A stretch of 64,000 nucleotides of DNA from Psammoneis japonica (taxonomy: Eukaryota), in the NCBI GenBank assembly GCA_008632985.1, contig QPGO01000019.1, forward strand, positions 496,001-560,000, written 5' to 3'. The translations under genes were made by a program, and so were the position numbers. The notes beneath the pieces were generated by a model. The model was not told the DNA's origin. It saw only the letters and a program-made list of their open reading frames with translations, and searched no databases. Every line of letters begins with the position of its first letter. Position 1 is the stretch's first letter. Below are positions 13,155 to 60,070 of the stretch, piece after piece.

Positions 13155-13264
13155 TGTGAGAGGGTCCTCAAGCGGACCTTCTTGTGCTCTGCCAAAGACT
13201 CTAGAATGTCAAAGACATCATCCCAAAGTCACACTTTGAGCAAGGTGTGATGATGTCATCAACA
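13155..13264 (-). repeat. Candidate short 3' LTR of the minus-strand copia
   Basis: On the minus strand a short purine tract (GGAGG) is followed by TGTTG...CTCACA, directly after the truncated RT. No partner LTR was found in the window. Confidence 0.3.
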
Positions 13265-16200: not shown

Positions 16201-16700
16201 CTCACTTGTCCTCACCAGTGCAGCACTGTGCCATCAGAGCAACCCATGCTTCACATCCATCTTCCCTGTGCTGGAATGGCTTGATCAAAGCTGCACAGGA
16301 GGGAACACGAGCAGCTTCTTCCAGTGCATGACAAAGAGGGAAATCTTCATCATGGAAAAAAGCATGAGTGTGGCCAGGCCAAGCAATTGGCTCATCTTCA
16401 AGGGATCCGTGTTGCTCTGAAAAGGGCTGATTTGTGACCAGAGCATGTTGTGTGTTTTTGCCAGAGCTGTCTCTTCTTCTCAAGCAACACATGACAGTGG
16501 AGTTGTCCAAGCATCAATTGCACACTGCAAGTGATCTTGGAAAGCCTTGGTCCACTTCATGTTGGCAGGGACTTGGAGATCCTTGGGACATCAGGGTCAT
16601 CCTTGTCATTCCAACCCTTGAGAGCCTTCCATGCTTCTTGAAAGTTCTTGAGAGTCCTTTGAGGAAACTCCTCCTCTTTGAGTTGCTTTGCTCCATCCCT
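13155..16700 (-). mobile_element. Degenerate Ty1/copia (CoDi-type) LTR retrotransposon: gag-protease-integrase-RT remnants
   Basis: Copia domain order on the minus strand. gag: NFQEAWKALK..DDPDVPRISK and IKPFQHREDGCEAWVAL. Protease: LDSHANVVVVG (~15185-15217). Integrase: FFMDTFF..CMQLFVTNKDFV..EIPQALKMFLKETGA (~14000-14350). RT: ALHGGKS..KADPDMWM..HVLLHTDNVL..SQHVQVAVKNVE (13280-13830). Many stops, frameshifts and internal deletions. The 5' boundary is approximate. Confidence 0.9.
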
Positions 16701-19700: not shown

Positions 19701-19850
19701 GACTGTGTTATAGATCAAAATGGCATTGGCATTTCATCTCATCCCCACATCAAAATTCAGTCCAAACGAACCACAATTCTCAAAAACAGAGCAAACAAGA
19801 CCTGCATTTTTTCTGCATGCGCGTGTGCCCAAAAATGCGAGCTGCCAGGC
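16700..19850. other. TpA/CpG-depleted degenerate block containing unidentified decayed coding sequence (K/E/Q-rich, coiled-coil-like remnants on the minus strand)
   Basis: Same dinucleotide signature as the adjacent copia. Fragments such as MEEVVEQKKKAAKMTKRQ and HIQMEKEMEEV; no family recognised. Confidence 0.55.
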
Positions 19851-19959
19851 ATGCCAAAACAGCACGCGACAGAATGCGCGAAACCCCGTCAATCCCGCAG
19901 AAGAAATTTAAGTGTCGAACAATACGAAGCTGTCAACAATGATGCAAGCAGCGCAAACA

Positions 19960-20646
19960 ATGAAGTTGATCTTTTTGACGCTCGCCTTAATGGTCAGTGG
20001 AAGACGACTAACAGATGCCTTTGTGGTTTGTCCCAGTCATGTTGCGAGACAACAACAGCTCCAAGAGGACAAGCCCGGCGCGAGGACAACGGGTTCGCAT
20101 CTTGTGGTTCTGAATGCTTCCAACGACAAGAACATCTTGGCAAGGGCAGCTAACAAAATTGGCTCTTGGTTTGCGAAAAATAAAAAGGAAAATGATGATG
20201 ACACGGCCGTTGAACTACTCTCTCGCCATGACGATGGTGTGGCGCTTGCCAATGAAATGAAACAAGCACTCGAATCCTTTCCGTGGCCCTTGCGCGAAAC
20301 GACGGAATCCGTGACGCGTTCCGTCAGCCGTGGGCTCTTGCGAGAAGAACGAAAAGCCAAGCCCTTGTTGCACCAAGCCCAAAAGCTCATTCAGTCCGAC
20401 GCTGAAGTATGTGACGTTTTGGGTACGCCAATCAAGTTTGGTGATATCGTCAGTCAGAGTTCGGAAACGACCGTGTCTGTGATTAACAACAAGAGGACCA
20501 AAGTGATACGGATCGTTGATACCTTTCAAGTAGAAGGGTCCAAACAGAATGGAATCGCCATTTTGGCAGCTGACAAGTATGCCAAAGGACATCTTCAAAA
20601 GCTACGAGTCAATGTCAAGGGAATTCACTACGACATTGATGTTTGA
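19960..20646 (+). CDS. Probable plastid-targeted protein with a Coa1/Tim21-like C-terminal domain
   Basis: Signal peptide ending TDA|FVV, resembling the diatom ASAFAP cleavage motif. C-terminal LLHQAQKLIQSDAEVCDVLGTPIKFG...FQVEGSKQNG resembles the Coa1/Tim21 fold. Alternative ATGs at 19939 and 19942. Confidence 0.6.
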   Translation: MKLIFLTLALMVSGRRLTDAFVVCPSHVARQQQLQEDKPGARTTGSHLVVLNASNDKNILARAANKIGSWFAKNKKENDDDTAVELLSRHDDGVALANEMKQALESFPWPLRETTESVTRSVSRGLLREERKAKPLLHQAQKLIQSDAEVCDVLGTPIKFGDIVSQSSETTVSVINNKRTKVIRIVDTFQVEGSKQNGIAILAADKYAKGHLQKLRVNVKGIHYDIDV

Positions 20647-21212
20647 TCCCGCGGTGTCATTCTGGGTAGTATGAAATTAAAGAATAGTGTTGTCACTAAA
20701 AGATCACCAATGTATGTAGCCACAAGATAGCCACATTCGTGTTTGATGTGCCTTTGTCGTCGTCTCCGAAAAAAGACCCTCGATGGATCTTTGTAGAGTT
20801 TTTGCGTGTCAGTCAGGTGTCACACCATGGGACGGGGAGAAGTGCATCCACAAGTCGGCTTCTGTGCTTTCCAAGTTTTATGAGAATTACTACGTTATAA
20901 CATAACGTGCATAAACAACAACCGACTCAAAAGTGCCGACAAGACGAAATTGGACGAGGAACACGCCTTTTTAGTCGGATCCTTTACTTCGTTAGTTGCA
21001 AGTAGCAAGGAACGGTTTCAGCACGACATGAGGTTGAGTCTTGGATTGGGTGGAGTTTTTGAGTGAGTCATGGATGTCAACTACCGGTAGTCCGAAAGTC
21101 AGTTGTCACACCAGCATCATCGACAAGGAACCCGCCCATCGTGACCGCATCGCAGGCGCTGATTTCCAGCTTCATGCATAGTTGGAATCGATTTAATGCA
21201 CGGACATAGACC

Positions 21213-21884
21213 ATGCCCTCTTCGACAGGGAAACGTCGCCTGCTTTTCTTGCACGGCATGTGGGTCCCTCCCGAATGTTACAAGTCCAAAGAAGCAGTTG
21301 ACTTTTTGAATGTCTTGAACGATTGGGACGTTGAGTTTGTTGAAAGCCCTCGCCCCTGTCCAGACACTCCACCGAGTTGGATCGACGAAATGTTTCCTAA
21401 TCGATCCACCTCTCCTGAGTGGGTCAACTCACATTCGAATGAGGACGGCACCAAGACCTATCACGGGCTACCAGAGTCTCTTGCGTTCTTGCAAAAGTAT
21501 CTTTCAGAGCAACCACGATTCGATATAATTGCTGGACATTCCAACGGTGCCTTGATGGCATCCATCTTGTCACTCAAGATAGAGTCGGATGATAATTGGC
21601 TGGACCACAGTAAACACTGGAAAGGAGTTTTGTTGTTCAACGCGCCAGGATCCTATGAAAATGAAACGCACTTGTCGGAAGTTGTGCAAAAGCATGGAGC
21701 CATGAAAATGCCTTCGATTCACGTGTGGGGCGGCCCATCCGACATTACGTTTGAGGGAGAACAGCGCCTTCAGAAAGTGCATTATCCAAATAATGCTACA
21801 ATCATACAGCACAATGATGGACACTTGTTTCCCAAAGACAAAAAGTATTACAATGAGATCGCAGCGGCTCTCAACGAAATCTAG
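21213..21884 (+). CDS. FSH1/OVCA2-family serine hydrolase
   Basis: RLLFLHG, nucleophile motif GHSNG, PSIHVWG..D and GHLFP (Ser-Asp-His triad pattern). Intact single-exon ORF of 223 aa. Confidence 0.85.
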   Translation: MPSSTGKRRLLFLHGMWVPPECYKSKEAVDFLNVLNDWDVEFVESPRPCPDTPPSWIDEMFPNRSTSPEWVNSHSNEDGTKTYHGLPESLAFLQKYLSEQPRFDIIAGHSNGALMASILSLKIESDDNWLDHSKHWKGVLLFNAPGSYENETHLSEVVQKHGAMKMPSIHVWGGPSDITFEGEQRLQKVHYPNNATIIQHNDGHLFPKDKKYYNEIAAALNEI

Positions 21885-22204
21885 ATTCAGGAAAGGCACT
21901 GTTGCCATCCATAACGTCATCAATTTGCGTAATCAAATGATAGAGTACGCCAAACTAGCCAAACTCTTTCTGCAATGGAACTAGGTTGAATAGGAGTCAA
22001 TCAATCGGGGAGTACCTATCCGAATGTCTTCCATACTACACATTTCTCGAGCTGCATTACAGGCTTACTGTGATGTGCAATTTCGGCATCTTGATTTCTC
22101 TCGGTTCGAAAAGGATGCAAGAACGTATTATGTACAAAATTGATCTAACTGAGTAATGACGCGGCATTCGCAGTCAAAGAGCTGTGCACCGGAAAGCATG
22201 AGAT

Positions 22205-40940: not shown

Positions 40941-43900
40941 GCTATTATTGTACTGTTGGATCCAGAATCTGTCAGAACTGTCTTACGATGTATCCATCAC
41001 CGATAAACCGAATGCGTGCCGTAACGAGAACTCTGAACAGTCAAAATAAGTCAATGACGAGGCTGAAGGGTGAGAAACAGTCTCGGAGCTTGATGATTCG
41101 CTGTAGTAGTGCAGCAGATTGTTTAGATCAGGCGTGCAAGAAAAAGTGATGTTGGTACCGGTATTGGAAAGTGCTTTCGCATCAATCAACAGAAAACGCA
41201 GATGCTCGTGATGTGTGGAGATTCAAAATGACAGATGTTTTGTGGGTGACCCACACCACTCGCAAGTCCCTTGACCTCACAATCAACAAAACAGCTGTTT
41301 CCTTCAACAAAACGAGAAAACAGGTGGCGGTTTTAACACGAATGACCGCACTCCGAGTCCGAAACAGCGAAATAAATCGCATACTCGGAAAACGAGAAGC
41401 ACGTGACGCATGACGTGTCTCTGACCAGCTGGCGAGTGCCACCGACACGACAGGAAAAAACGAAGAAAACATCAACAACCGTCGAGTCCAAAACACGCGT
41501 CTCTCACGATGAACACAAATTATTGTCATGCACAAATAACATACCTCTGTGTGTGTGATGAGTGCGCTTGTCAAAGTGATGCAATCTGCAACAGCAATAA
41601 GAGGAGAGCTTAGAGCTTGTAGATTGTGGTTCTTTTGTGTGGGTCGGGTCGTGAGTTGATTTATGGGCAGATGGCGATTGTTGAAGTGGCGCAGGAGTTC
41701 TGCTTATCATAGTACGCAAAAAATCGTATGTAGAATCTACGTGATTTTCGGTATGTTCATTCTGTTGAGAAGCAGTGACGTAAGCATTGCGAAATAAATA
41801 TAAAATATACATAATCGCATAAGTAAGTCGCAGAAGCAGCATGATGTGGCTTTGTCAGTGCAAGATTCAGCGTTGCAATCGTGAGGGCAACTCACCCATG
41901 CCTCAGAGGCTCGCGAGTTCCCTCATCTCAGTTTAGCTCCAAACGTCCACGCTGGAAGGATGACACTGGTCTGTCCCTGTGCCGATGCTAAAATCGACAC
42001 TCATGGTCCTGCTCCAATGGCACAAAAGCAGAGAAAAACACTCAGTGCTGTCGACTCGGCTGAAGACATCACCCGGTGTGCACGAGCTGGCTGTGCAATG
42101 CCTTGATGAGAAGATCAACTTGGTGCCAGCTGCAGCATGATTCAAGTTCTGCTTGCTGATTTTGTTGAAATTCATCCACGAAACTCAGCTCTGCATTTTT
42201 CGCACATGTGTGTTCACAAAACTGCACAAAATTTCCCTTTTCGGCACACCTTTGTGCCCGCACATGAATTGTCGCCAAAACAAAATGTTGGAGAGAGCCA
42301 CTGTGCAGTGCATCAGCACAAGTGCCTTGCACAACCTCTTTTTGATGGATTGCCTGTCACACACTGCAGGTGCCGGCGCACCTGCTGTGCGGCCCTTCTC
42401 CTGCTGCTTTGCTTTTGTGCTGACTTCAGGAAGTCTTGGCTGCACCACATGGTTGGCGTGAGAAAATCACATGATGTCATGCCACTGCAGCACTCTTCTT
42501 CTTTCTTGACATTGGCGCAAGTGTCAATGTGATGACTCGCTGTTGCTCTTCTGAGAAAGCTTTCCTCTTTGCCACAAATGCAAAAGACAAGGAGAGGCTT
42601 GACTCTCTCCTCAAAAAGGCAGAAAGCTTTTCCACATCCGGTGCACTGCTGAAAGTTTTTGTCAAGAACAAAATTGCAGGAGAAGAGACAGAGATTGAGG
42701 TTGACATTTGCAATCCTCACGTTGGGTGCAGCATGAACAGCCCCGATGATCGCAAATGTGAAAGCAACTTCTTCAGGAGGAGTTGTCATCAGAGAAAAGG
42801 AGGCATGGAAAGGCTCCACTTGTCCAGCGAGTTCAATTCCAACACTCCACTAGAAGGCCATCAGACAGTGGTGGAGCATGTCACCAAGGCTTTCAATGCA
42901 TCTGGTGGCTGGTGGTGGCATCATTGCCACTGGCAGCTTTTCAGCCAAATTGTTGGATGTTGTCTTGAGATGCAAGAACCGCCACAGGATTGGCAAGACA
43001 AAGGACAATGATGGAAGGGAAGAAGAAGGGTCCAGCCCCTTGGCAAAGAAAATGACAATGGCAAGGCCACCAGCTGATGACGACACATGTGACTGGAGAA
43101 GCCAACTGCATTTTGAGCCATCGGAAACAAACACACTTGTTGGTGGATGGCTCTTTTTCAAGAACGGTGCTGGCAATTTCAAAAAGATGTGCAAGAGCAC
43201 ACCAGCAAGAAATGGTCAGAAGAGCCACCCCCCACCTTGATGAAAAACAAGCTCAAAACAGTCAATGATGACACAGATGTCAATTTGGGCTCCCAGTTGA
43301 TGGCGATGACATTCCAGCAGCACACTGGCCTTGCCATCATTGCACCAGGATGTTGAAGAACTGCCACCCCCCTCTGTTGGCCACGTCACATGGAACAATG
43401 TCGCTGACAGAGCAAGTTGTTGCCAAACATGTCAGCAACAGCAGTGCATCTGTTTTGTGCTTGATTGTTTCCATGTGTGTGTCTTGGACTGCACCCCGCC
43501 AAAGCCACTGCACTCGGGCAATTTCTGGTGCTGGAATGCAAAGAATCAAAGCCGTCATTCACAAAGCACCATCAACATCTCATCCACAAATGCACAATTG
43601 TCGCAACCAGAAAATGTGTGTGTGGGCGGTGAGTGAAAGTGACTTTGTGAAAACATTGAGAGCATGAGAACAGCAGACCAATGAAGTTCTGCAGCAAACT
43701 TGCTTGGTCACAGAGCATCAGGGATGAGCTCAACAGGGATCACAGTGGCAACAATGGCGAAGATGATGTTGAGAACATGCTGGCAGAACTTGGCAGAGGC
43801 ACCTTTGTCACAGTTCTTGTCACTGGAGCCTTCAAGATGGCCACACGCACCACTGGTTGCTGTGCCAGTTGCATCATGGTGTGCCCTTTCTGTCTGTGGC

Positions 43901-44510
43901 ACAAGATGACAAAGAACTGCTTTGGCCGACCATTGGCTGATGGTCTGCAGCAAGCCCAAGAGGCAAGGTCATTGAGACAGGGACATTCTGCAAGGACGAA
44001 ATGAGGAATTCCTTGAAGTCCTCCTTCACAATGCATCTGTGATTCAAAACAAAAACAGAAAATGCTTTCAAAGAGAACAGTGACCTGAATTTTTTTGACA
44101 CAATGAGAAAGGAAAAGAACAAACAACACAACAATGTGCCAAACAAAAATCACAGCCACTGCAAGAACACATCCAAATGAGAAAATGGCAACATCATCAT
44201 GTCCAGCACCCTTTGCAGCAGAACAATGTGACTTGTCAAAATTGCACACTGGGGGCAGGGACACACGGACAGGTGGTGACACAGTGGCTCTCGTGATTGC
44301 ATGCTGGTCACAATCATGTTGTGTCCCCAGCTTCACGATTTTTCTCTTATTTCATTGCTCATTGCTGCAACTGACATTTGGAGCTGGGTTCCAGCAGAGA
44401 ACCAGGAAGGCCATTTTGCATTGTGGAGTGCTGCTTTGCAGCCCTGAAGAAATGAAGACTGTTTGGGACACACTGAATGTGAGTCCATCCAAAATCAAGC
44501 ATGAGAATGA

Positions 44511-44755
44511 TGACAGGATTTGAACAAGATTTTAGTTCATCACACACAATTGTGTGTGCTCTCAGCTCCACTCGCATCACGCGATGTAGTTTGCTTTTGA
44601 GCCACATGGCTCACAAGAACAATGACAGCAGCACCAACATCATGACACCAGTCTTTTGGCTCCTGCAACGGTCTCTGCACAGAGACTCATCTGCTGTTTA
44701 GACAGCAGTGAGGAGATGTTGTTTTCTTCCACCCAGTCATCTTCAACTTCTGTCA
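44511..44755 (+). repeat. 5' LTR (245 bp)
   Basis: TG...CA termini; aligns end to end with 48592-48835. Confidence 0.93.
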
Positions 44756-47700
44756 GATTGACAGTCTGCTCATCTTCATCCATTGAGCGTTCATCATTGT
44801 CATCAAGAAAAATTTTGACAACGCACACCGTTGGTGGTGGAAGCACACACCTGCCTTCTCACTGCTGGATGTTGGATTGAATCTGCACATTTGGACTTGT
44901 CCAACACCTTGTGTCGTTGGACACATTTGTTCAACGGATGTTTGTTTGGTCAGGAATTCCCAAACTCTTGGACATCCAAGATTCCGGATTCCCTGCAGCA
45001 GATTCTACCCTGGTTGGCAGACAGACAAATCCATCCGCTCGCGTTCACGCGCACACGACACAAACCCTTGACTCTGGCCCTGCTTCGTGCATGCCAAGTC
45101 TACGCCTCTTATCTGCGCCGGATTGCTGGTCTTCTACAGTCCCACAAGGTCCACAAGGACAACTGTGAGAGGAAGCAGTTCGTGATTGCAGCCTGCATTG
45201 GGGCAAGGGTGCATTTCCCACGTTTTTTCATCCATCCACAGCGCCAAATTTGGCCGCCTGATCGGGTTGTCCAACCGACACAAAATGAGAACGGTTCGGA
45301 GGTCTTGTCCACCTCCAGCTGGCTTGTCAGCGGGGGTTTTTAACCCATTGCTCCGCTCTCAGGCAACCCAAGGCGTCACCAGCTGCGGGTTTGGACATGC
45401 CGGCACAACTCTGCGGACCGGATGGGAAGCTTGGCACTTGACTGCAAACGGGATGTCACAGCCTGGTGGCTTCTGACTCATGAGATGGTCTCCAAGACTT
45501 CAAATCAAGATTCAAGTCAAGTTTCAAGTCATTTCAAGTTCACCCTCGACTCCATCCAGCCCCAACACCCACCCAGTTGCAACATGGTTCTCACCAGGCA
45601 GCAACAAATCGATGGCCTTGAGCACATTCTAGGCACTGTTCTGGATCAAGCCGCAGACAGTCCATTGCACAATGCCCTCAACATTGATGGAACTGACTCG
45701 CACCAGGATCTCTTCACTTTTACTCCGACGCAACTGGATGCCCTGTTTCACAATGACGGCGCCAATCAGATGCCCTTGCCGCATGGTTACAAAGCACAGA
45801 CAGCTGCGCTGATTTGCCTGCACATGGTGAAAGCGCGCAGCGGTGCCAATGTTGGCAATGACCCTCACTTGTTCACACATGCTGAGTTCACTGACTGTCA
45901 TCTTAGCCCTGAGCACGCAGCATCCCTTTCCATGGGTGCAGCACCATCTGCTCCCACTCCTGGCTTGTTGCCACCCAAACCATGTGATCCCACGTGTGAC
46001 TTTAAACAAGGCATCAAACGTGACCCCCTCACCTTTGCAACTCTCAAGTCTGACAAACAGTGGCACACATGGCACACCTCCATCATCGCACAGGCCCGCT
46101 CCCAAGATGTCGACCACATGCTCGATCCAACGTACAAGCCCTCCACAGCTGAGGACAAGGCCCTGTTTGATGAACAACAGAAATGCATGTTCGTCACATT
46201 CAAATGCACCTTGCAGAACAACAAAGGCAAGGCACTTGTTTGTGAACATGTTGGCTCCTCTGATGCCCAAGCAGTGCATCGTGACCTGTCCAAGTGTGCC
46301 CTTGCATCTGCTCGCGCATCCCTGGAGTCCTTGACTCTTCTCACGCATCTCACCACTGCTCGCCTTGGTGATGGCACCTGGAAAGATCCACCCATGCCTT
46401 CATGCTTCACTGGCAGGACCAGCTTTGCAAGTGTGAAGCTCTTGTTCTGAGTGCAGACCACTTCTCTGCTGGCCAGAAATGCGCCATGGTTGAGAACGCC
46501 GTTCATCCTGTCAAAGAACTTCGTTTGGTGAAGAATCAAGCCGATCAGTTTCGCGCGCAGAATGGCAGAGGCCTCTTGTGCGAACAGTGCTGTGGGCTCC
46601 CACTTTCAGCAGTGGCACAGCACGACAGCACGTTCACCCCCAAGATGGCTCCACCCATCCCTCACCTTGTCATCTACAAACATGACCTGGCACCCAACAA
46701 CCATGATGATGATGCATTCTTCAACATTGACAGTGACGTTGACATCATTCAGGCTTGTGCTGCTCAAACCTGCAGCTCTTTTCTCATCAGGGAACAGTGG
46801 CACCACATTTTGCCAGACCACCAGTGCATTTGGGGCAGCCCACCGCAGTCCACCAAGGCCATCATCCTTGGATTGCGCAACCCCTGTTCCGGCAACTGCC
46901 ACGAGTTGGAAGGTGTCAGCCTCCATGAGGACCTCCATCTTGGAAGTGATGGCGACATTGATTTGTGTGTCAACACTCATGATCTTGCCTTGACCGCTGC
47001 ACCACCCACTGATGCACATGACAGGATGGACAACAACCTCATCCTGGCACATCTCATGAAGTGCAAGCCTCTGCTGCCCAGCAATCTGCAGCATCTTCTC
47101 TTGCCTGACAAACTGCTCCTACGCTTTCAATGGCGGGAACCCGTGCACTGCCACCTTGACTGTTCTGACTGGCCGTCTGAATCCTGCAAGTTGCATGGTC
47201 ACTTCGTTGGCATTGCCGAGCATGTCAGTCATCAGATGACATTCAAGATCCTCTCTGATGACACTCAGAATGTTCCCTGTTGCTCGAACATGCATTCCGC
47301 CCACAATCCGTCTGCCCCTGACCTGCGTCTTGACCCTCCTGACAAGGAATCAGCTGAACCTGTCATTAAATCCCGACATGACCCCAACTGATTCAATGGA
47401 TTCACCCAATGGGGAGGTGATCAGGATGCCCAAAATGCCGGTCGTTGCCCCCGAGGATGTCATTGGACGCACCTTCCTTGTGAAGCCACAAGAGGACAGA
47501 CAACACCACAGAGCTTGTGTCGTCAAAGCCGTTGAGGACCATGACTGGAAAATTGGAGACAATCCCAAACTGGTCAAGTTCATTTGCTCCATCAACAATG
47601 ATGAGTGCGAGGAAGTCCCAGCCTGCAACAACATCATGCACCACATCAATCAAGAAGACAAGGACACCACCCTCTGGAAGTTCCGATGCATCGCATCACA

Positions 47701-48591
47701 CAAAGGACCATTGTGACCCCACCATGATCCCTCTTGGAAAGGCTCAAGCTACAACGTCATGCTTGAATGGGAGAATGGGGAGATCACGTCCAAACCCCTT
47801 GCCATCATTGCCAAGGACAATCCCATCACCTGTGCCATCTGCGCACATGAGCACGGCCTCCTTGAAACTGAAAGATGGAGACATTTCCGCAAGACAGCTC
47901 TGCATCAGAAGAAGCCATTCTGCATGGCCAATTGAGCCAAGTTGCGCTCCTTTCATGCTGTGCCACAATGCAAGCATGAGCATGAAGTGCCCCGGGGCCA
48001 CAAGCATGCCTTGGCCCTTGATGAGCACAATGGCAAGCACAAGTGGGGAGATGCAACAGACCTTGAGATGACTCAGCTGGGTGAGTGCCATGTTCTCTAC
48101 AACTGTGGACACTGCAAGGACTCCAGTGCCCAAGCAGGACACAAGAAGATTGGGGTGCATCTCATCTGTGACATCAAACATGACGGACGGAACAAGATGC
48201 GACTTGTTGCTGATGGACACCTCACAGAGGCACCTGTTGACAGTCTGCGCATCACTTCACGTCACCTTGGCGTCCCCATTCATGAAACATGTCACATGTT
48301 TGGGGACAACAAGTTGGTTGTGGATGGTGCTGCCATCCCACACTCCAAGTTACACAAGCAACACACCACCCTCTCATTCCATCGTGCACGTGAGGCAATT
48401 GCCTCCGGTTTCCTTGAGTTTCATTTCATTGAAGGCTCCCGCAACCCAGCTGACATCCTCAGCAAGCATTGGGGTTGCTCTCAAGTCTGGAACCTCCTTC
48501 ATCCTAAAATGTTTTGGAGCTTCAATCCCAAGGCTTTCAACCAATCTGACTTTGAATCTGTCACTGTTGACCCCTCAAGCAAACTGGGGAG

Positions 48592-48835
48592 TGACAGGAT
48601 TTGAACAAGATTTTAGTTTGTCACACACAATTGTGTGCGCTCTTGGTTCTGCATGCGTCACCGATGCAGTTTGCTTTCAAGCCACATGGCTCACAAGAAT
48701 GACAACAGCAGTGCCAATGTCACGACACCAGTCTTTCGGCTCCTGTGATGGTCTCTGCATGGAGACTCATCTGCCATTTAGACAGCAGTGAGGAGTTGTT
48801 GTTTTCTTCCACCCAGTCATCTTCAATTTCTGTCA
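48592..48835 (+). repeat. 3' LTR (244 bp)
   Basis: Follows the purine tract, has TG...CA termini and is followed by the TSD. Confidence 0.93.
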
Positions 48836-50712
48836 AATGAGGCAGCCATGGGTCAGGGAAAGGGCTCAACTGGGTGGGCTGCTTGTTCCTGTGCTCCCAT
48901 TTTGGTTGTTGAGTGGAAGGGCTTTGACAGTTTGGCAGCTGCAGAGGGAAACCGTGACTGAAACCAGCAACTCGTCAACTTCAATTTGACCACCAGGTTT
49001 GAAATGGATCTAGATTCTTTTTTGAGCAAGGAGCGTGCAATGGCCACCATTGCTTTGTTCCTGAGCAAGCTCTCCATTCTATGCTGCAATCTTGTGGATG
49101 GCATCTGTTTTCCTCAGAGAAATTCTGAGCTGACCGCAAAGCCTGACATTGTGGCTGTGTGAGCAAGGATGACACAAGACTTCATGTTGGGACTTCCGAA
49201 GATGACTGTCTCCATCCCCACAACCTGGCAAGAGGGTGCAAACTCAATGAGAAAATGCTCAGTTGATTCAATCATTGTGTGGGTTCCCTCTTGAAACCAT
49301 GCCAGATTAGAAACTCTGGTTTTTGAAGCAAATGATGATGTGAATGGCTTGAACAGCAGCGCCAAGGCTCACAACATCATTGTCAATCACTGGGAGGTCT
49401 CACAAGACTTTGATGCAGAGAAACAGCAAAAGCAAGAGCCACTCTCTGCACAATGGCCCATTGCAAAGAGAAAGATCTTTCATCTTGTTTGTCAAATGCA
49501 TGGTCACATGGTTGCTGATGAGTGCTGATGCGGAGTTTTTCACACTGGTGACAGGAGGTGGATCTTTTGCAGGCGGATGAGCAATGGTGCACTCTTGTTG
49601 TCTCAAGCACTGTTTGGTGGGATGAAACCTCTCCATCTGTCCTCTAAGCTGCAAAGACTCTCACTGGATTTGATGACCATTGTTTGGGAGCCACTGTTGG
49701 CATTCATCCTTGTTCATTGGCATCCAAAGCACCTGCCAAAAAAGAGCTGAAATCATCACCCAAACCTCCCCCGATGCCCCCAAGCTGAAAGGACGACCAT
49801 GGTGGCAGGGAGCCAACAGGGAGAGGGAAAGACAACAAGACAAATGACACTCTAAATCTGGCAGCAACCCTGTTGTCCTGGGAGTGCGATGCATTTGACA
49901 AGACAGACAAAGTTCTGCTGCTGATGATGCCAAAGTGTCCTCATGTCTTGGCAAAAATGATGCAACAGAACCCGAGCTTGTGCCATGTTGCCCAGGAAAT
50001 GGCACACAAAGCAGAGTTTTACAAAGGGTTGCAGGGTTGGAAGGATGCAGAACAAGTCCTTCCTGGGTTTCACGGTCACAACACTCACTTGGTGGCTGTG
50101 GCCGTTGAGCTGCTTTGAGCTTGAGTCGGATGATTTTGATGACATTGCCATCAAAAACGTGTCAGTGGCACCAAAGCATCCAGCAGCACATGCAGTTGAG
50201 TTAGAGAAGTCTTTGCTTCTTCATTGACTGTGAGCCATCTTCATCCGCAAATCAAAGAATGGACAAGAAGCAGCAAGTGTTCGTGATTTGCGATCGCGAG
50301 TCACGTGCAGCAGGTCAGAGTGTTCTTGCTCGACACATCAAATGCGCGTGCATGCACCATGTTCAGTTGCCTGTGTGCTTTGTTTGCTCGTGAGTGTTGC
50401 ACATGATGCTGCGATCATGTAGAATGCACAGCGTTGCACATGAAATTGACACCTTTTAGAAGTGGTGGACATGGCATTGTGAATTGCACGTTCGGTCATG
50501 AATGTGGTCCAATGCACCAAAACTCCTCGAGCAGAAAAACGCCAAATTAAAAGCACCCATGCAATTTTGCCCACGTGTTCTCAGTTTTCACTTTGCTGTT
50601 GCAGCTCAGCCAGCAGAGGCCTGCAGTGCTTTGCTTCTCGTGCGGCCGCATTGACTGTCTGCCAGTGCCATGCTTTCTCAAACTTGCTTGTCTTGCAGGT
50701 TGTTGATGCACC

Positions 50713-52270
50713 ATGGGCCGCATCACTGTCTTTTCTCTTGACTCATGTCCACACTGCAAGTGAGCTGAGGGTGCTTGGAGTGCAAGAAAGATCCCCTTTG
50801 CGGAAATCAATCTCTTGAGTCATCCTCAAAAACGAAATGACATGCTGTCCCTTGCAGATCGCCTCTTGGTGCCGCAGGTTTTCTGGAATGAACAACACAT
50901 TAGAGGTGCAGATGAAACGATTGCTCAATTGACAGGATGGGACAAGAACACTGAAAAGAGTGCATTGCAACGACACAAAGATGAAATTGAATCCAAACCC
51001 AATCTGTTGGACCCGCATTTGGCCCTTCCCACAAGTCCGGCCGTCGTTGAAAAAGAACCTCCACCGTGTGACAATGAAAACAGCACGCTCTTTCAGATGG
51101 AACAATGGCTGCAGTTCTGGATGTCATGCAGAAACTCATCAAGGTGCTTCCACGCGACAACCTTTCCTGCAAGGTTCACATGTGCAAGGACTGTTTTTCA
51201 TTGGAGCCAAGGGAGTTTCCATGCTCATGGAGCATTTTGAACGGATTGCCACTCGTGATGAGGCTGTTGTGTTTGGATGACAACTGCAAGATGCCAAACT
51301 GCTCCATCATGTTTGTGAAGAACACAAATTCAAAGACAAAACATTGCTGTTGACTGCAGTGTTTTCATCAACCTGACGTTGTCAGTTCCCATCGTGTTTG
51401 GACCAAACGAGTCAATCCAAATGCCATGGCATTGCTCAAGCGATTGAAAAAGTTGTTGAGCAAGGTGGAGTCATCCATCACGGACAAAAAAGGTCCAGTG
51501 GACTGCATTGGTGCCCACGAGAGTGAACATTGCAATGTGTTTGAAGAAGCCGTCTGCAAACTGCAAGGAGTGGACATGGGAAAAATGAATGAGGAGGAGA
51601 GGCTCATCTTTGGAATGAACTTGTACAATCTTATGATCAAGTGCGTGCTCACAAAGGTTGGCATGCCATCATCTAACTTGACACAAGCTTCCTTCTTTTC
51701 AGGTGTCAAACTCAACATTGGTGGGGACGTTTTGTCATTTTATGACTTGGAGAATGGAGTGCTTCGGTCAAACTCGAAACCACCCTGCAGTTTCAGCACA
51801 CCATTTTCGTCGTCCAACCCCCGATGACATCTTGCCTTGAGTCCAGTGGATTGTCGGATTCATTTTGCTCTCAATTGCGGCACCAAGAGTCACCCGCCCG
51901 TCAAGGACTTTGCTGTTGAAAGCATGGAAGAGGAGTTGAGAATTGCTGCTCTTTCGTTTTGCGAAGAGGACAAGAATGTCGCTCTTGATGAAGCCAAGAA
52001 TGAAATCAAGCTCACCATGATTGTGAATTGGCGCCAAAGCGATTTTGCGGAATCCAAGGAAAAACTGCCAGAGAGCTCATTGTAATTCTTGAGGGGCGAA
52101 AAAGCAGAAACATTGGAATGCATGACTCAATCGGGCATTCCAATCAAGGTCAAATTTCACCAACACGATTGGAGCACAAATGCAAGTCATTTGACGTCTA
52201 CGAGAGCAGCAAACTCAAGGCAAACGAGTTCAGTCTGACACCACTGTTGAGTTTTGACAGTTGCAGAGAC
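50713..52270 (+). pseudogene. Glutaredoxin-DEP-DUF547 gene, decayed
   Basis: Glutaredoxin with CPHC: MGRITVFSLDSCPHCK*..IPFAEINL..VPQVFWNEQHIRGAD. DEP-like: CKDCF..TRDEAVVFG. DUF547: FGMNLYNLMI..NIGG..SFYDLENGVLR..DCRIHFALNCG. TGA stops at 50761 and 51825 plus frameshifts. The 3' end is approximate. Confidence 0.88.
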
Positions 52271-55059
52271 CCAATGGAATGAACAGCACAATGCATCAAT
52301 CACCCATGCACTGTTTTTTCATTCAGCATAGCTTTTGAAATTCCGGCATCCATTTCTTGTTTCTCATTGCATTTCATTGCGTTCATTTGCCACTTTGTTT
52401 CAAGTGTCACAGACCTCACAATGTGCTCCAGTTGGACATTGTCACTGCAAGCAGCCAGCATCAATGGAACAAGAGACGACATTTTGCTGCTGTGGGGCAG
52501 CATGAACATGGAAGCAGGGTCACTCACAAGGACTTGGTCAGATGTGGCACTCAGCTTTGTAACCTGAGACTGCCTCTTGTCAATTGTCCAGACTAAAAGC
52601 AGCAACACAAACTCACAGTGCAGAGTTTTGGGGCTGTGGGATCACCTGTGTTGGGCCGGCACCATGAGTGGATGCAAAGGCTTCAGCCTCTCATCAATTG
52701 CTCATGGTCACACAGCAATGGCACAAAAGCTCACAAGCATGTCCAGCAGTTGGAAGAAGAACAAACTTTGCCACAAACCAAGAGCGAACATCAGGTGGTG
52801 CTGCCCAGTGTGGCATCAGTGGACAGAGCGACATCAGCCTCTGCCAATCATCATGAAGCCGTGGAGCACAACATTTGTAGATGATTTTACCAAGGGAGGC
52901 ATTGCATCAGTTGTGGAATTGCTCAGTGGGGTCACCTGTGTGGCAGTCTTAAAGCAGAAGCAAAGGCTCACCAAATGCCCCCAAATGTTCCACCAACAAG
53001 TCCCTCCAAGATGCATTTGCTGTGCATGGTTGAGACAATTGGCAAGAAAACATCAAAGAGCCACACATTCATCTGTCAACCTGCTGTGACAGACAATGAT
53101 GGTGATGATGATGACAAAAAGTTTGCTGTTGCTGGCCTCCAGAAGTTGCTGCAACATCAACAATGTGGTGCTCAACATGTGGCCAAAGGCTGTGGCATGT
53201 TGTTCATGGAAGCAGAGGATGCAAACAAGTGCCAATTTTTCTGGCATTGATTGGTGAGACCCTGGCTGATGATGACCAGAGAATCGCTTGTCTGCCCTCC
53301 CAACAAAATTTGCAGAGCTGTTCACCCCTCATCCAATGCTGCCCATGGTGCACAACTGCAAAGCAAGTGCTCTCATGTGCTCACACATGATTGATGATTT
53401 GCCTTGCAACATTCTGGCTTTTCTTCACCTTGGCAGTCCACAAGGACAAACATGTGAAGTGAAGTGCAGGAAGATGCCCAGTGAGAAAAAATGTGCAAGG
53501 GACCGCCTCAAATTGGTCCTCAGGACCCTGCTCAATGATAAGGCCTGAGCTGTTGGAAGCAATGCTAAGACACTAGAGTGTGGCTGCCAGCTCTCTGCAA
53601 GTGCCAAATGGCAAAGAGCTCTCATGCCAAGAGCTCCACAATGTGCTCATCATGCAGGCCAGTGTGGCATGACTCTGCCTGATTTGCCTGAGTGTTGCAA
53701 TGGATGTGGGCATGCAGCAAACTCTCCTGGATTTTCCATTCAGTGTCAAAGCCACACTTCACAATGCCATCCACAACAACCTCCCCAACCAAGAGAGCCA
53801 AAATCTCTTCACATTGTTGGAAGTGGTGCCAGGCTCGCTCAAGTCACAAATGCAAAATGGAAAATTGCATGTGCAAAATCTCACCACTTGTTCATGTGAC
53901 CACTGCATTGGCCACACACAGAACCCTGTTTCTCTGTTTTTTGCTGGCAGCTGCTGCTGCACCCATGCACTCTTGCAAACACCATCTTTTTCGTCAGTGT
54001 TGCATTGTCAATCCAACAGCAGCACAGTGGCTGCAAGGGGTTGATGCTCATGATGTTTTTGCTGTGTCAGGCATCTGGCTGTCACATGTGACCAGACTCA
54101 ATCCTGGGCACTGGCGCTGGCAGAGGCTTGCTGCAAGACTTGCCACTCTGATGCAAGTGGGCCAGAAACTGAGGTGAAAAGAGGTCAGCATGTTTGCACT
54201 TTGCGCAGCTTCTTCCGTGCAAGAAGGCGCCTGCTCCAACTTCCGTTCTGTCTGTCAGCACCCAGTGCCCACTTGAGACTGTCTCAGTTTCAAAAGTTCT
54301 GTTTGAAGTGCTTGTGGCACAACCACATGTTTGAAAGTGCTCCAAGATGAAAAAAAAATGATGCATCAACACACACACAGAATGTCAGCAGCCAGCAAAG
54401 TGCACCCACTGCCTCTGAAAAAGTCCCATGTGCAGCCACAGCCCCCCACAGCTCACTCCTGAAGAATCAACAGGTGTCGCTCTTCTTGGGATGTGGCGCT
54501 CCTTCTTGACTCTAACAGGCTGGTGGGGTCTTCATTGCCCAGTGTGCCCACACTGCTCTTGTGGGACGAGTCTCTTTTGTTGTCAACCCACGCGTGCTTC
54601 TTGGCTGCTGAAAGCTGCAGTTTTCCAGACCCCCTTGAAAACCACAATCAGGAGGGAGGCTGTGGGGGTCACAGTGTCATCAAGTGTCAAACAGCTTGGG
54701 CAGAATTGTCTGTGTCCTCGAGACAGTGTGAGCTTGCCTGGCCCACAGCACATTTTGGGATGACGACCCCCACAAGACAGTTTGATGGAGGGATTGTTGC
54801 ATCCAAGTGTCAGAGTTGACATGCGAGCAGCTGCACTTGCATTTTTTACAACACATTTTGAAAGAAAGGTGAAAGGTGATGGAGATGATGGCATCGGCAT
54901 TCACACAACCTGGCCACCGTGTGGCTGCCAATGCAGAAGTGCGCAGGAGGAAAAGCCACACCAACCCTGCGAGGTTTCGATTTTTCGAAATGGACAGATG
55001 GTGCGTTTGCAGTGCAAGTAAATTCCGTGTTTTGGTTTCCTGTCAACTAACTCAGCGCT

Positions 55060-55302
55060 CTGGGTGTCGCCACTTAAAGCGAGAATCGCAGTGGCAGTCT
55101 GTCTGTACGACAGTTTCTACATGTGCTTTGCACTGTCGTCCGTCCCTACCGTACGGTACCACCTCCCGCCCGAGACAATTGGAGTCGGGTTGGTCGGCGC
55201 GAGCGGGAGGTGGCAGGGACGGACGAAAGTATAAAATATGCGTAGAAATCATCGTACAGACAGACCGCCACTGCGAATTTCCTTGCATGTGGCGAGACCC
55301 AG
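55060..55302. repeat. Foldback/MITE-like long imperfect inverted repeat (arms ~55060-55169 and 55203-55302)
   Basis: Left arm tcgcagtggcagtctgtctgtacga...tcgtccgtccct..ccacctcccgc is the reverse complement of gcgggaggtgg.agggacggacga...tcgtacagacagaccgccactgcga. Confidence 0.85.
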
Positions 55303-55514
55303 CTCAGCAGCGGCGTTTATCGGTGTCCTACCTCGCTCTTTAGCGTCATAAAACTACTCTCTAGCTAGAGTAGTAGGGCCCTACCGTAGCGTGCTACTAC
55401 CTACTCTAGGACTACTGTACTTTCTTTGTGGAAACAAACCTGCAGTCTGCCATAGAAAACTGCGTTATCATTTCGTTGCCAATTTAATTCAATTCAATCA
55501 TGCGACGACTAGGT

Positions 55515-57181
55515 ATGAAGAAATTTCCAATGGCGGCACTTCTCGTGCTTGTCACAATCTTGCGAGAGTCTGTTAGTGGCTGGACTGTTGGACACACTCC
55601 ACTAAGCATGGCAGTCACAACCAGTAGACAAGCAGCTTCCACCTCGCCAGCACTGAGTCGCTCCGGTCACGACCAAAAAGCATGGGCGAGAAGGTACACA
55701 ACGTGTCCCAAAGAGATACCACTAACAGTCATTGATTGTCCGGATCTGCCCAAAGATTTTCCTTAAGGGACTTACTAGCGGAATGGCCACGGACGATTTG
55801 AGTCTGACGATGGGGTTTGTGCTCATCACATGTTTGATGGAGATGGCCTCGTTTCAGCCATGACGTTTGATCCTCGTCAGAAGAAGCTCTTGTTTCGGAA
55901 CAGATTTGTGCGCACCGAAGGATATCGATCTGATTCAGAAACCGGGAAAATGAGTCAGCCGGGTATCTTTGGAACACGAGGTTCTGGTGGGTTCTTCTCA
56001 AACCTCTTTAGAACCGATTTCAAGAACGTGGCCAATACCCATGTGCTGTACGGCGGAGAAAAGTTGTACGCCCTTTGGGAAGGTGGATGGCCATATCTTC
56101 TCGATCCACTGACATTGGAAAACGACGTTGAAAAGGAACCAAAGGGACACGACCTAAACGGCCTCTTGAAGGATCAAGACAAGTTTGCGGCACACTACCG
56201 ATACGATTCCCATTCTGGTCACATAGTCAATTTCGGTTCGAGCCTCGATCCTGTGAAGGGAGAAAGCAAGATCAACCTTTTTGAATTTGACAAGGATATG
56301 AAACCAATCCGAACGGATGAAGTATCCTTTGTATTTGATGGTGCCGCTGTTGTTCATGATTACGTTCTTACTGAGAACTGGCATATCTTTTGCATGCCTC
56401 CCGCCGGCATTGACAACCAAAAGGCTCTCATGGCCTTGTTGGGGCAAGCGGCTTTTGCGGAGGTTGTGGACTTTGATTCTCAAGCTACCGAACCGACTGT
56501 CTTTCTGGTGCCACGCATTACACGGCTCGAAGAGGGAACGGCTGCAGATATGCGTGCAAGACATGACAACCGAATAAAAGTAATCAAGGTTCCCTATCAT
56601 TTCAATTTTCACTTTGCCAATGCCTTTGAGGACGAAGACGGCAACGTTGTGTTTGATTCTGTAATGACGGAAGAAGCAGAGGTAAGGCCGGTTCCAGGTG
56701 ATTTTCATGATTATTTTGTATCTCATCTGGAAACTCACTGGGTCGCGCATTCTTGCGGTAGCTTGGAGCTGGTTTTTCCAAGGACATTCCGTTATGGGAC
56801 CAGATTGACTGGGACGACCTCGTTCCCAACAAGTACGTACGAATTTCGGTGTCTCCCGAGCTGGACAGCATCACGCCAGGAACTCGCTTTGACGTGATTT
56901 CCGCACGCTCCAATGAATTTCCGTCCATTCCAATGGCACTGTCAGGCAAGACGCATCGATGCACGTGCACTGTCGGTGCCCATCAGCCGCATGCAACCAT
57001 GCCCAATGGTCGTGGTGGTGCCCCGGGCGGTGCCACACTCAAACTTGACACGGCACAACCAGAAAAGTGCGAGTCATTTTCTTTTGCGCCTTGCGAATTC
57101 CCCGGCGAAGTTGTGTTTTGCCCGAAACAGGGAGCAGACGTGACCAATCCAAACTTTTTGCGTGCACCACATTCAAAGTAG
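55515..57181 (+). pseudogene. Carotenoid cleavage oxygenase (RPE65/ACO family) pseudogene with a plastid-type targeting signal
   Basis: DLPKDFP*GTY*RNGHG, HMFDGDG, FRNRFVRT, KNVANT, LWEGG, FAAHY, VHDY, FHFANAFE, EFP and GEVVFCP. Stops at 55764-55766 and 55776-55778; intron 56682-56761. Similarity ends near 57150, before the expected last blades and fourth His. Confidence 0.88.
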
Positions 57182-58849: not shown

Positions 58850-60070
58850 GGACCCGTTGAAGCTCGTGCGTGCGTTGAACGTGCTGCAGATTGTTACAAC
58901 ATGAGTTCGTTGCCGCCTCTCGTTTTCCTCCCTCATTCTTCCGAAGAATGAAGGAAAACAGAGACGACGTTGTAGACAGTCAATTCGCTATTGTCGTCGT
59001 TGCGAAGGACACCTTCGCCGTTTTCTTTCGATCGCAGGAAGACTTGTCTGAGAAGCACATCAGAACAGTCTCCAAGCAACGTCGTGTCCACGATGATGGT
59101 TTGTTTGTCTCAAACTCGTGGACTCTTGGCTCTCGGCCATCTGCAGCATGGGGCTTGCAGATGAGTCTCAGGGTTGGGAACTTCCAATGTTTCAGCTCAT
59201 GCTCCCACCAGTGGTGTGTTTCTTGTTCTTTCATCAAAGTTGAGCCGACTGGGTGCCGCATTTGCACCACACCACAACAGCGACCGCAGAACAGCCCAAA
59301 TCTCAACTTGATGCATCTCTGTTTGTTGAAGCCAACAATGGGCCAACAAGAGGGAAAAAGTGACCCAACTCTCCAGCAATGAGTTTGAGGAAGCTTCTGG
59401 AAAACAAAGCAAGTTTGGGACGATGTCCTCTTGGGAATGTTGGCACGGGTTCCTGGCACTGAGAGAAAGGAGAGCAAGTTTTACATTCGCACATGGCATG
59501 ACTTGTTGCACACTCTTGGTCCCATCCCTCTAAGATTGCACAAATCTTTGCCGCTTGTGTGTTGCACAAGCAAAATTGAGCATGAACTTTCTGCTCAAAT
59601 GATGTGCCGCCCGATGCAAATTGTGTCTTTCTGCCCAGATCTGCTCTTCCGTGGTTCTTTGAGCATTTCTCCACCCTTGGTGCTCCTTGTGGTGGCATCA
59701 CCCTCAACCTTTAAAAAACTGGGATTGTCATCTCCATCACCAGCACCAGCAGCCCCATCCCCACTCGTCTTCCTCCATCTCAGGCTGGCCCTTTTCCACT
59801 GAATTGATTGAGAAAAAGCACACAGTGCGCCACCACCAAGATGATGGTGGTGGCTGGAGTCATGCGGCAGCAGTGACGGACTCCCCCTTCTGCACCCCTT
59901 TCTTCTTGCCAGCAAAGAACCATCTCATCAAGCACGCCTCCATGCTGTTTTTGTTGTGCCAGCACACGCATCAGATGGATGAATTGTTTGTGATTTTGGA
60001 AAAAAGGACTTTTTACTCTGACGAAAAAAGTTCAAATTTCAAAAAATGACACCAATTTGCGTTGTGACGT
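58850..60070. other. TpA-depleted degenerate patch with unidentified decayed coding sequence
   Basis: Few TA dinucleotides, CpG only partly lost, and overlapping Cys/His-rich ORFs. Confidence 0.6.

What the first reader, a model, noticed from the sequence alone, without database searches (positions are those of the whole stretch)
50713..52270. A conserved host gene (glutaredoxin-DEP-DUF547) destroyed by the same signature
Seen: the complete Grx(CPHC)-DEP-DUF547 architecture lies ~1.9 kb from the copia 3' LTR. It has TGA stops where Arg (CGA) is plausible (CPHCK*, NPR*) and Cys/His where Tyr is plausible (VDC, EHCNVF, KPPCSF). Inference: the process is not limited to TEs. It either recognises duplicated sequence, as RIP does, or spreads in cis from silenced TEs. 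Either way it would shape the fate of gene duplicates. Other unidentified gene-like debris at 42500-44000 and 52600-53550 suggests a whole gene-bearing segment was hit.
Basis: partly seen in the sequence, partly recalled or inferred. Interest (0 to 1): 0.72.

Follow-up and report, generated by a model that had tools for sequence, protein, structure and literature searches.

The report
Diatom gene copy erased by hypermutation
A dead copy of an ordinary diatom gene has lost about nine in ten of its TA steps and half of its CG steps, while the working gene elsewhere in the genome is nearly untouched, which shows that a little-known TA-specific mutator also hits the alga's own genes and probably chooses them for being silent rather than for being duplicated.

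Summary
Confirmed. Window 50713-52282 is a dead copy of an intact 523-aa glutaredoxin-DEP-DUF547 gene held on contigs C27 and C334 (90% identical). It lost 38 of 42 TpA (to TG or CA) and 48 of 90 CpG, against 2-4% change elsewhere. Homologs show that the copy changed, not the donor.

The 13-kb island is a mosaic of unrelated pieces, not one segmental duplication. The donor keeps normal TpA, ten 87-97% identical repeats elsewhere keep theirs, and loss is flat across the gene. The copia landed in a more decayed neighbour.

Best reading (0.6): silent chromatin receives 5mC deamination plus a strict TpA A:T-to-G:C mutator, probably adenine deamination (inferred). Active genes are spared.

The closest known case is TpA hypermutation of integrated viruses in Bigelowiella (bioRxiv 10.64898/2026.01.13.699255). 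Here a host gene is hit and CpG is lost too. The scan noted this signature before on other DNA of this genome. This locus adds a full-length before/after pair and tests of targeting.

The parts
50713..52282 (+). Dead glutaredoxin(CPHC)-DEP-DUF547 coding sequence with 5 premature stops and 4 frameshifts in the donor's frame. Grx about 50722-50901, DEP about 51156-51356, DUF547 about 51582-51959.
50664..52455 (+). Duplicated segment, 89.7% identical to G000:C334:20062-21846 (and C27:66786-68454). 5 of 54 donor TpA and 43 of 98 donor CpG kept; 57 of 1463 other sites differ. The donor's ~710-base upstream spacer is replaced by 127 bases that do not match it.
50213..50536 (+). Upstream element shared with the donor locus (71%), TpA-poor in both places
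41990..55018 (.). Sharply bounded TpA- and CpG-poor island (TpA o/e 0.06, CpG 0.35; window 20-41.9 kb outside it: 0.59 and 0.95)
44511..48835 (+). Copia-type LTR retrotransposon relic (TG...CA ends, 5-base target duplication at 44506-44510 and 48836-48840), inserted into the kinase-like gene copy.
48836..50203 (+). Dead copy of a kinase-like gene whose TpA-normal relative is at G000:C12:722251-723665; its 5' end lies at window 44450-44510. 72% identical, 3 of 46 TpA and 6 of 69 CpG kept.
   Evidence: weak Pkinase hit, below cut-off
52482..53019 (+). Mutated piece of a multicopy family (14 near-full matches on C10, C11, C49, C83); 0 of 24 TpA and 1 of 34 CpG kept. It abuts the gene copy.
53130..53716 (+). 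Fragment of a dispersed element whose other copies encode a YADD motif; read as a non-LTR reverse transcriptase from recall, no Pfam hit
54093..54880 (+). Mutated copy of DNA at G000:C10:525.7-526.5 kb; 0 of 15 TpA and 0 of 20 CpG kept in the longest piece
41844..42129 (+). Left-edge repeat matching C13:580689-580959 and many dispersed copies; 1 of 15 TpA kept
43531..43895 (+). Two pieces matching DNA between genes at G000:C3:628.6-629.9 kb; 0 of 9 TpA kept
55456..57155 (.). Control outside the island: a 91% identical duplicate of C172/C66 DNA with partial TpA loss, 6 of 44 on the island side and 10 of 14 at the far end

Best explanation
A DNA-level copy of a working host gene came to lie, without its proximal upstream region, in a block of silent junk DNA built from transposon and gene fragments. 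Two context-specific processes then acted on it on both strands. One is C-to-T at CpG, most likely deamination of 5-methylcytosine. The other is a faster, strict TpA-to-TpG/CpA change, most simply deamination of the A of TpA in DNA, read as G. The target is chosen by the silent state of the block, not by pairing of duplicates and not by distance from one transposon, and expressed genes are spared up to sharp edges. SHOWN: the two spectra, their direction, strand symmetry, strict TpA context, no detectable selection on these changes, a donor with normal TpA, untouched multicopy DNA, a flat profile, and the mosaic build. INFERRED: methylation and silencing of the block, expression of the donor, order of arrival of the pieces, and adenine deamination as the chemistry (about even odds alone; enzyme unknown).
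For: Spectrum and context. A>G by 5' neighbour: TA 33 of 80, AA 11 of 275, GA 7 of 241, CA 6 of 220. Both strands: 19 TG against 16 CA. Direction from 60 homologs: the donor residue is favoured at 17 of 19 TpA-only and 25 of 28 CpG-only replacements. No detectable purifying selection on target changes: TpA 24 of 61 non-synonymous against 12 of 23 synonymous, CpG 32 of 118 against 17 of 67. Estimated hits per base: TpA 1.19, CpG 0.41, against 0.021-0.039 at other sites, about 30-57 fold and 11-20 fold. Donor CDS TpA o/e is 0.40, inside the 0.39-0.56 range of 9 other ORFs. 9 of 11 pairs with a copy in TpA-poor DNA are one-sided. Ten repeats 87-97% identical over 1.5-2.0 kb keep 40-47 TpA per kb. 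No trend along the gene (Spearman p 0.28 and 0.46). CA/TG swaps (5 in the gene, 32 in an island flank, 1 in a control repeat pair) and TpA/CpG differences between run X1 and the assembly (12 of 24 positions) fit a process that keeps acting. In P. tricornutum, loss of DNMT5a depletes methylation, and the hypomethylated regions overlap H3K9me/H3K27me3 marks (PMC9998398, passages). In Bigelowiella the TpA target is single-copy and transcriptionally silent. The genome encodes several C5 methyltransferases, one next to a chromodomain ORF, and TadA- and ADAT2-like deaminases.
Against: No methylation, chromatin or expression data were available, so 'silent' and 'expressed' are inferred from sequence. 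The two intact alleles differ at 6 of 51 TpA and 10 of 102 CpG sites among 25 differences. The allele nearer a copia lacks 7 CpG that the other has, against 1 the other way, so a weak leak into the working gene is not excluded. Pairs with both copies mutated exist (upstream element, copia relics, C3:365.9 kb), and searches favour intact donors. The multicopy control has no known function and may be under selection. The duplicate at 55456-57155 loses TpA outside the big island and keeps most CpG, so TpA loss may not need prior CpG methylation. The deaminases found look like ordinary tRNA enzymes; nothing ties them to DNA.
Confidence: 0.6

Rival explanations
1. One-sided homology guidance: small RNAs or aberrant transcripts from the extra copy mark homologous DNA for silencing and mutation, and the active gene resists. 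Duplication is the trigger although only one copy suffers.
For: 10.1 of the island's 13.0 kb has a match elsewhere in the genome. An inverted copy of the donor's promoter 7 kb from it lost 22 of 23 TpA. The duplicate at 55456-57155 shows TpA loss outside the island.
Against: Ten 87-97% identical repeats are untouched. Island DNA with no match found (42130-43530) is as TpA-free as the rest. The Bigelowiella target is single-copy.
Confidence: 0.14
2. RIP-like pairing that hits both copies in a few intense rounds. Mutated donor alleles were then removed by selection and sex, while the unlinked dead copy drifted on.
For: The copy (1.8 kb, 90% identical) meets the size and identity thresholds stated for RIP (PMC3017866, passages). 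It lies on a different contig from the donor. Diatoms carry RID-related DNMT4 enzymes of unknown function (PMC9998398, passages).
Against: The chemistry is the reverse of RIP: TpA is removed, and CpA>TpA is seen at 5 of 228 bases. Mutation runs past both duplication limits. The multicopy family and non-coding donors keep TpA. CpG retention falls with divergence across the pieces (44% at 3.9% background, 0-9% at 12-20% for four pieces, 33% at 10.5% for one), which looks more like a clock than a burst.
Confidence: 0.1
3. Cis-spreading from a silenced transposon, here the copia 1.9 kb away, engulfed a gene that was already in place.
For: The copy is near the copia and other mobile fragments. Non-target changes show past purifying selection (pN/pS 0.23), so the copy or its source allele worked for a time. 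One intact allele shows a weak CpG deficit next to a copia.
Against: No gradient along the gene. The copia inserted into a copy with heavier CpG loss than the Grx copy. TpA loss in the neighbouring duplicate is lowest beside the island (6 of 44 against 10 of 14, p 9e-5). A copia whose LTRs differ at 19 of 276 positions, 18 of them TpA, CpG or CA/TG swaps, lies 3 kb from the intact ATG, yet the promoter alleles differ at 1 of 38 TpA. Spreading from the island as a whole, to saturation, is not excluded.
Confidence: 0.1
4. Same targeting as the best reading but different chemistry: an error-prone polymerase working during repair of 5mC-derived T:G mismatches makes the A:T-to-G:C changes. From recall, polymerase eta favours both TA and AA.
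For: TpA and CpG loss coincide in the island. T>C outside TpA (25 of 760) is somewhat commoner than C>T outside CpG (10 of 539).
Against: AA is not hit more than CA or GA (11 of 275 against 13 of 461, p 0.40) and about ten-fold less than TA in raw counts. TpA loss occurs without CpG loss in the C334 copia (TpA o/e 0.22, CpG 0.92).
Confidence: 0.15
5. Ordinary pseudogene drift or a sequencing artefact.
For: Two of the four frameshifts may be long-read errors.
Against: 86 of 134 differences are the two context classes (p 1e-24 and 3e-22). Separately assembled contigs of run X1 carry the mutated sequence. Control duplicates of similar divergence lack the pattern.
Confidence: 0.01

Closest known systems
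TpA-specific hypermutation of integrated NCLDV and virophage DNA in Bigelowiella natans (Mettrop et al., bioRxiv 10.64898/2026.01.13.699255; I read parts 1-3 of 5: abstract to conclusion, not methods; supplements closed)
   Same: TpA to TpG/CpA on both strands, strict context, localised regions; the larger target is transcriptionally silent and single-copy; the paper proposes adenine deamination, with no enzyme shown.
   Different: Here the organism is a diatom, the target is a copy of a conserved host gene, loss is near saturation (90% of sites), and CpG is lost as well. In Bigelowiella 210 of 211 changes in the NCLDV region were A:T to G:C. That paper measured de novo rates; mine are inferred from paralogs. 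It notes host-type Pfam domains among TpA-poor coding sequences but, in the parts read, shows no intact donor and dead copy pair.
Repeat-induced point mutation (RIP) of filamentous fungi (PMC3017866, passages)
   Same: Dense, context-specific transitions that kill a duplicated gene and nearby transposons.
   Different: RIP makes TpA from CpA, hits both copies, needs at least 400 bp at 80% identity and acts before meiosis. Here TpA is erased, the donor keeps normal TpA, and qualifying repeats are untouched.
DNMT5-dependent methylation of diatom transposons (PMC9998398, passages), with passive 5mC deamination (established knowledge)
   Same: Explains the CpG to TpG/CpA half and its confinement to repeat-rich blocks.
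   Different: Cannot produce TpA loss, which is about three times faster per base here and also occurs where CpG is kept.

Membership tests
Fungal RIP | C:G to T:A transitions, mostly CpA to TpA | tested here: not met
   CpA C>T at 5 of 228 bases; 38 of 42 TpA lost
Fungal RIP | Both copies of a duplication are mutated | tested here: not met
   Branch counts TpA/CpG/other: window 36/49/47; the two donor alleles together 2/3/18, p 2e-4. Purging of hit donor alleles by selection is not excluded.
Fungal RIP | Repeats of at least 400 bp and 80% identity are targets | tested here: not met
   10 of 10 family copies compared (87-97%, 1.5-2.0 kb) keep 40-47 TpA per kb
Fungal RIP | Acts before meiosis; linked to RID/DNMT4-type enzymes | not testable with these tools
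   C5 methyltransferases are present, one next to a chromodomain ORF; a homolog search did not assign a class
Bigelowiella-type TpA hypermutation | TpA to TpG and CpA on both strands | tested here: met
   19 TG and 16 CA among 38 lost sites
Bigelowiella-type TpA hypermutation | Restricted to the TpA context | tested here: met
   A>G at 33 of 80 TA against 24 of 736 other A/T bases
Bigelowiella-type TpA hypermutation | Confined to discrete regions | tested here: met
   TpA falls to near zero at 41990 and returns at 55019
Bigelowiella-type TpA hypermutation | Target is DNA of viral or foreign origin | tested here: not met
   The named best homologs are mostly diatom proteins, and the best hits are 55-61% identical; an intact host copy exists
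Bigelowiella-type TpA hypermutation | Almost only A:T to G:C changes | tested here: not met
   49 CpG transitions beside 37 TpA transitions; read as a second, overlapping process
Bigelowiella-type TpA hypermutation | De novo rate about 1000-fold above background in vegetative lines | not testable with these tools
   Long-term average here is about 30-57 fold; the instantaneous rate is unknown
Bigelowiella-type TpA hypermutation | ADAT2-like candidate DNA adenine deaminase | tested here: inconclusive
   ADAT2-like gene at C26:119.7-120.6 kb with HAE and EPC motifs and a downstream exon with Asn. TadA-like ORF at C38 with Asp where E. coli TadA has Asp. Such genes are near universal (12 of 14 control genomes).
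5mC-deamination CpG decay | CpG to TpG/CpA on both strands | tested here: met
   29 CA and 16 TG of 90 sites; strand difference p 0.07
5mC-deamination CpG decay | The DNA carries 5mC at CpG | not testable with these tools
   No methylation data available

The most novel reading that the evidence does not exclude
Diatoms have an active DNA adenine-editing pathway, a natural TpA-specific base editor, that reads silent chromatin rather than foreign origin or homology. Together with 5mC decay it makes silencing irreversible: any gene copy that stops being transcribed loses its Tyr codons and gains stops within roughly the time that separates two alleles of the species. This would set the fate of gene duplicates in the lineage.
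Probability: 0.3. Interest if true: 0.88.

Novelty: new variant of a known kind. Interest (0 to 1): 0.66.

Why it matters
Mutational genome defence is known from fungi (RIP), and a TpA-specific form has been proposed once, for integrated viruses in an unrelated alga. This locus gives a full-length before/after pair for a host gene: two intact alleles, one dead copy at 90% identity, and direction fixed by homologs. It shows that foreign origin is not required, and it makes the targeting rule testable: silent state, homology, or distance from a transposon. If silent state is the cue, diatom duplicates have a short window to stay expressed, old repeats become hard to recognise, and an unknown enzyme edits A in DNA in a strict TA context.

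Tried and rejected
One 13-kb segmental duplication: rejected, the pieces map to C12, C334/C27, C10, C13, C3 and dispersed repeats.

Retrocopy origin: disfavoured, since there is no poly(A) at 52455 and an upstream element is shared.

One mobile unit with terminal repeats or a target duplication around the gene copy: none seen at the junctions. Helitron-style capture is a recalled possibility and was not tested.

Allelic or empty version of the island: the flank searches found none.

Source of 42130-43530: no match by DNA or by one 178-aa frame.

Identity of the C10 family: no Pfam hit for the one frame of it scanned and no Rfam hit.

Expression: no RNA holder listed. Run X2 laid nothing, and X3 and X4 laid 2 contigs each; these are no evidence either way.

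The polarity table was off by one residue and was discarded; one search replaces it and uses 60 of the 120 homologs then held.

Classing a methyltransferase as DNMT4/RID: not resolved.

Sequence look-up among earlier findings: nothing returned.

Literature: searches returned 0 papers and one search returned the Bigelowiella preprint. The listings (25 of 70 shown; 15 of 37 shown) showed no report of TpA erasure in diatoms. The library lacks most subscription papers, and bioRxiv supplements were closed, so the preprint's gene tables may hold host-gene cases that I could not see.

Full report
OBSERVATION. The window is G000:C16:496001-560000. Bases 50713-52282 (+) are a broken glutaredoxin-DEP-DUF547 gene. 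Two intact 523-codon copies exist, at C27:66836-68404 and C334:20228-21796. They are 99.1% alike over 4.7 kb and 99.6% over a further 6 kb, and differ by a copia-type insertion with a 5-base target duplication, so I read them as alleles. Pfam finds Glutaredoxin, DEP and DUF547 in the intact protein. Its named best homologs are mostly diatom proteins, so the host is very probably a diatom.

SPECTRUM. At 1570 of 1600 aligned columns (dropping 24 where the alleles differ, and gaps) the window copy has 134 differences. T>C at TpA: 37 of 86 bases, against 25 of 760 elsewhere (p 1e-24). C>T at CpG: 49 of 185, against 10 of 539 (p 3e-22). By site, 38 of 42 TpA are gone (19 TG, 16 CA, 3 other) and 48 of 90 CpG (29 CA, 16 TG, 3 other). 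Twelve of 14 Tyr codons changed. Stops: CGA>TGA at 50761, 51278 and 51351, CGA>TAA at 52083, and AGA>TGA at 51825. There are four frameshifts. Contigs of run X1 match the dead copy without a difference over three stretches that hold two stops and two frameshifts; the two single-base deletions may be long-read errors. X1 may be the assembly's own sample and is not independent support for anything else.

DIRECTION AND RATE. Among 60 homologs the donor residue is the commoner one at 17 of 19 TpA-only replacements (1 window, 1 tie) and 25 of 28 CpG-only replacements (2 window, 1 tie). Target changes show no detectable purifying selection (TpA 24 of 61 non-synonymous against 12 of 23 synonymous, p 0.33; CpG 32 of 118 against 17 of 67, p 0.86). 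Non-target changes do (pS 0.094, pN 0.021). So the copy, or the allele it came from, worked for part of the time since the split, and its neutral period was short. Survival of 5 of 54 TpA and 43 of 98 CpG gives 1.19 and 0.41 hits per base, about 30-57 and 11-20 times the background of 0.021-0.039. The context is strict: A>G at 33 of 80 TA, 11 of 275 AA, 7 of 241 GA and 6 of 220 CA. CA/TG swaps (5 in this gene, 32 in an island flank, 11 between the window's LTRs, 1 in a control repeat pair) fit either a TpA or CpG ancestor resolved two ways or a new TpA removed again. X1 differs from the assembly at 24 positions in 4.6 kb of the island: 9 CpG transitions, 3 TpA transitions, one swap (2 positions) and 10 others, although only about 22 TpA remain. 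The process is therefore recent or continuing (inference).

THE ISLAND IS A MOSAIC. TpA drops out at 41990 and returns at 55019. The gene's duplication covers only 50664-52455, plus 50213-50536. The donor's 710-base upstream spacer is replaced by 127 bases that do not match it. The other pieces match a kinase-like gene on C12 (44450-44510 and 48836-50203, split by the copia with a 5-base target duplication), a family with 14 near-full matches (52482-53019), a dispersed element with a YADD motif (53130-53716), and DNA on C10, C13 and C3. 10.1 of 13.0 kb is assigned; 42130-43530 is not. CpG kept: 44% in the Grx copy, 33% in the C13 piece and 0-9% in four other pieces, with backgrounds of 3.9%, 10.5% and 12-20%. 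I infer pieces of different age, with the Grx copy among the youngest; some donors found may be distant paralogs.

HOMOLOGY SENSING. RIP makes TpA from CpA, hits both copies and needs 400 bp at 80% identity (PMC3017866, passages). Here the donor CDS has TpA o/e 0.40, within the 0.39-0.56 of 9 other ORFs. Branch counts are 36 TpA, 49 CpG and 47 other for the window copy, against 2, 3 and 18 for both alleles together. Nine of 11 pairs with a copy in TpA-poor DNA are one-sided and 2 are uninformative. Ten of 10 family copies compared, 87-97% identical over 1.5-2.0 kb, keep 40-47 TpA per kb. Against this: searches favour intact donors, pairs with both copies mutated exist, the family's function is unknown, and selection with sex could purge hit donor alleles.

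SPREADING. Loss does not change along the gene (Spearman p 0.28 and 0.46). The copia sits inside a copy with heavier CpG loss than the Grx copy, so it did not found the island (inference). The duplicate just outside the right edge loses 6 of 44 TpA near the island and 10 of 14 at its far end. At the donor locus the intact gene occupies about 2.5-2.9 kb of TpA-normal DNA between TpA-poor blocks. On C334 a copia lies 3 kb upstream whose LTRs differ at 19 of 276 positions, all transitions and 18 of them TpA, CpG or swaps, yet the promoter alleles differ at 1 of 38 TpA and 0 of 43 CpG. Against this: within the gene the alleles differ at 6 of 51 TpA and 10 of 102 CpG sites, and the allele nearer the copia lacks 7 CpG against 1, so a weak leak is possible.

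MECHANISM. The reading that fits most results is targeting by silent chromatin, with two chemistries. CpG decay fits 5mC deamination. In P. tricornutum loss of DNMT5a depletes methylation and de-represses young transposons, and the affected regions overlap repressive histone marks (PMC9998398, passages). This genome has several C5 methyltransferases, one next to a chromodomain ORF. TpA loss fits deamination of A in DNA. It is separable from CpG loss (C334 copia: TpA o/e 0.22, CpG 0.92) and too strict for a polymerase that also favours AA (preference recalled). TadA-like and ADAT2-like genes are present but unremarkable. Methylation, silence, donor expression and the enzyme are all inferred.

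KNOWN SYSTEMS AND NOVELTY. It works like the TpA hypermutation measured in Bigelowiella natans (bioRxiv 10.64898/2026.01.13.699255; parts 1-3 of 5 read): same context, both strands, discrete regions, and a silent single-copy main target. It fails two of that system's stated features, foreign origin and near-absence of C>T, so I call it a variant and not a member. It is not RIP. My searches found no paper on TpA erasure in diatoms, within a library that lacks most subscription journals. The scan has noted the signature many times on other DNA of this genome, twice with partial gene duplicates. Those notes gave me the preprint; the counts above are my own.

VERDICT. Interest 0.66; new variant of a known kind. 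The boldest reading not excluded, a natural TpA-specific DNA adenine editor that makes silencing of gene duplicates irreversible, I put at 0.3.

Noticed in passing
G000:C334:24841-31947 (L007/L008): A copia-type element present on one haplotype only (empty site on C27, 5-base target duplication) has a stop-free frame of 1546 codons with only 7 Tyr; TpA o/e 0.22 but CpG 0.92. TpA loss erodes proteins without making stops and can precede CpG loss.
   Followed up: partly
G000:C27:60939-61455: An inverted copy of the intact gene's promoter region, 7 kb from it, lost 22 of 23 TpA and 20 of 28 CpG.
   Followed up: partly
G000:C126:89912-90134 (L004/L005): A third, fragmentary copy of the gene's 3' part, about 550 bases from the end of a related copia in the same relative orientation as in the window; it kept 3 of 5 TpA.
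   Followed up: partly
G000:C10, C11, C49, C83 (L023-L033): An unidentified family of about 2-3.5 kb with 14 near-full matches, 11 on one contig, 85-97% alike, normal TpA in the core, no Pfam hit for the one frame scanned and no Rfam hit.
   Followed up: partly
window 41105-41659: TpA-normal DNA whose copy at C288:23702-24224 kept 2 of 13 TpA and 1 of 31 CpG: the same one-sided pattern with the window as donor.
   Followed up: partly
window about 19000-19900 and 21000-22200: A local duplicate straddling an island edge; the copy inside kept 0 of 6 TpA and 1 of 13 CpG.
   Followed up: partly
window 55060-55302: A palindromic element of about 240 bases (91-base arms) just outside the island's right edge, with dozens of copies and normal TpA; MITE-like by shape.
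   Followed up: no
G000:C297, C301, C34, C10, C59 (L080-L088): C5-methyltransferase genes are many (27 matches). Copies on C297 and C301 lie in TpA-poor DNA and some carry stops; one on C34 lies next to a chromodomain ORF.
   Followed up: partly
window 49093, 49332, 52777, 53447, 53835, 54078, 54629, 55019: Run X1 has extra bases at these places, mostly single, so the assembly may carry small deletion errors or the island is heterozygous.
   Followed up: no
window 1-2000, 13000-20000, 59000-60000: Further TpA/CpG-poor islands in the same window.
   Followed up: no
P0031, P0052, P0087: Three full-length homologs of this gene are listed with the same 54-kb contig length in Seminavis robusta, so duplicates of it can survive in another diatom.
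   Followed up: no
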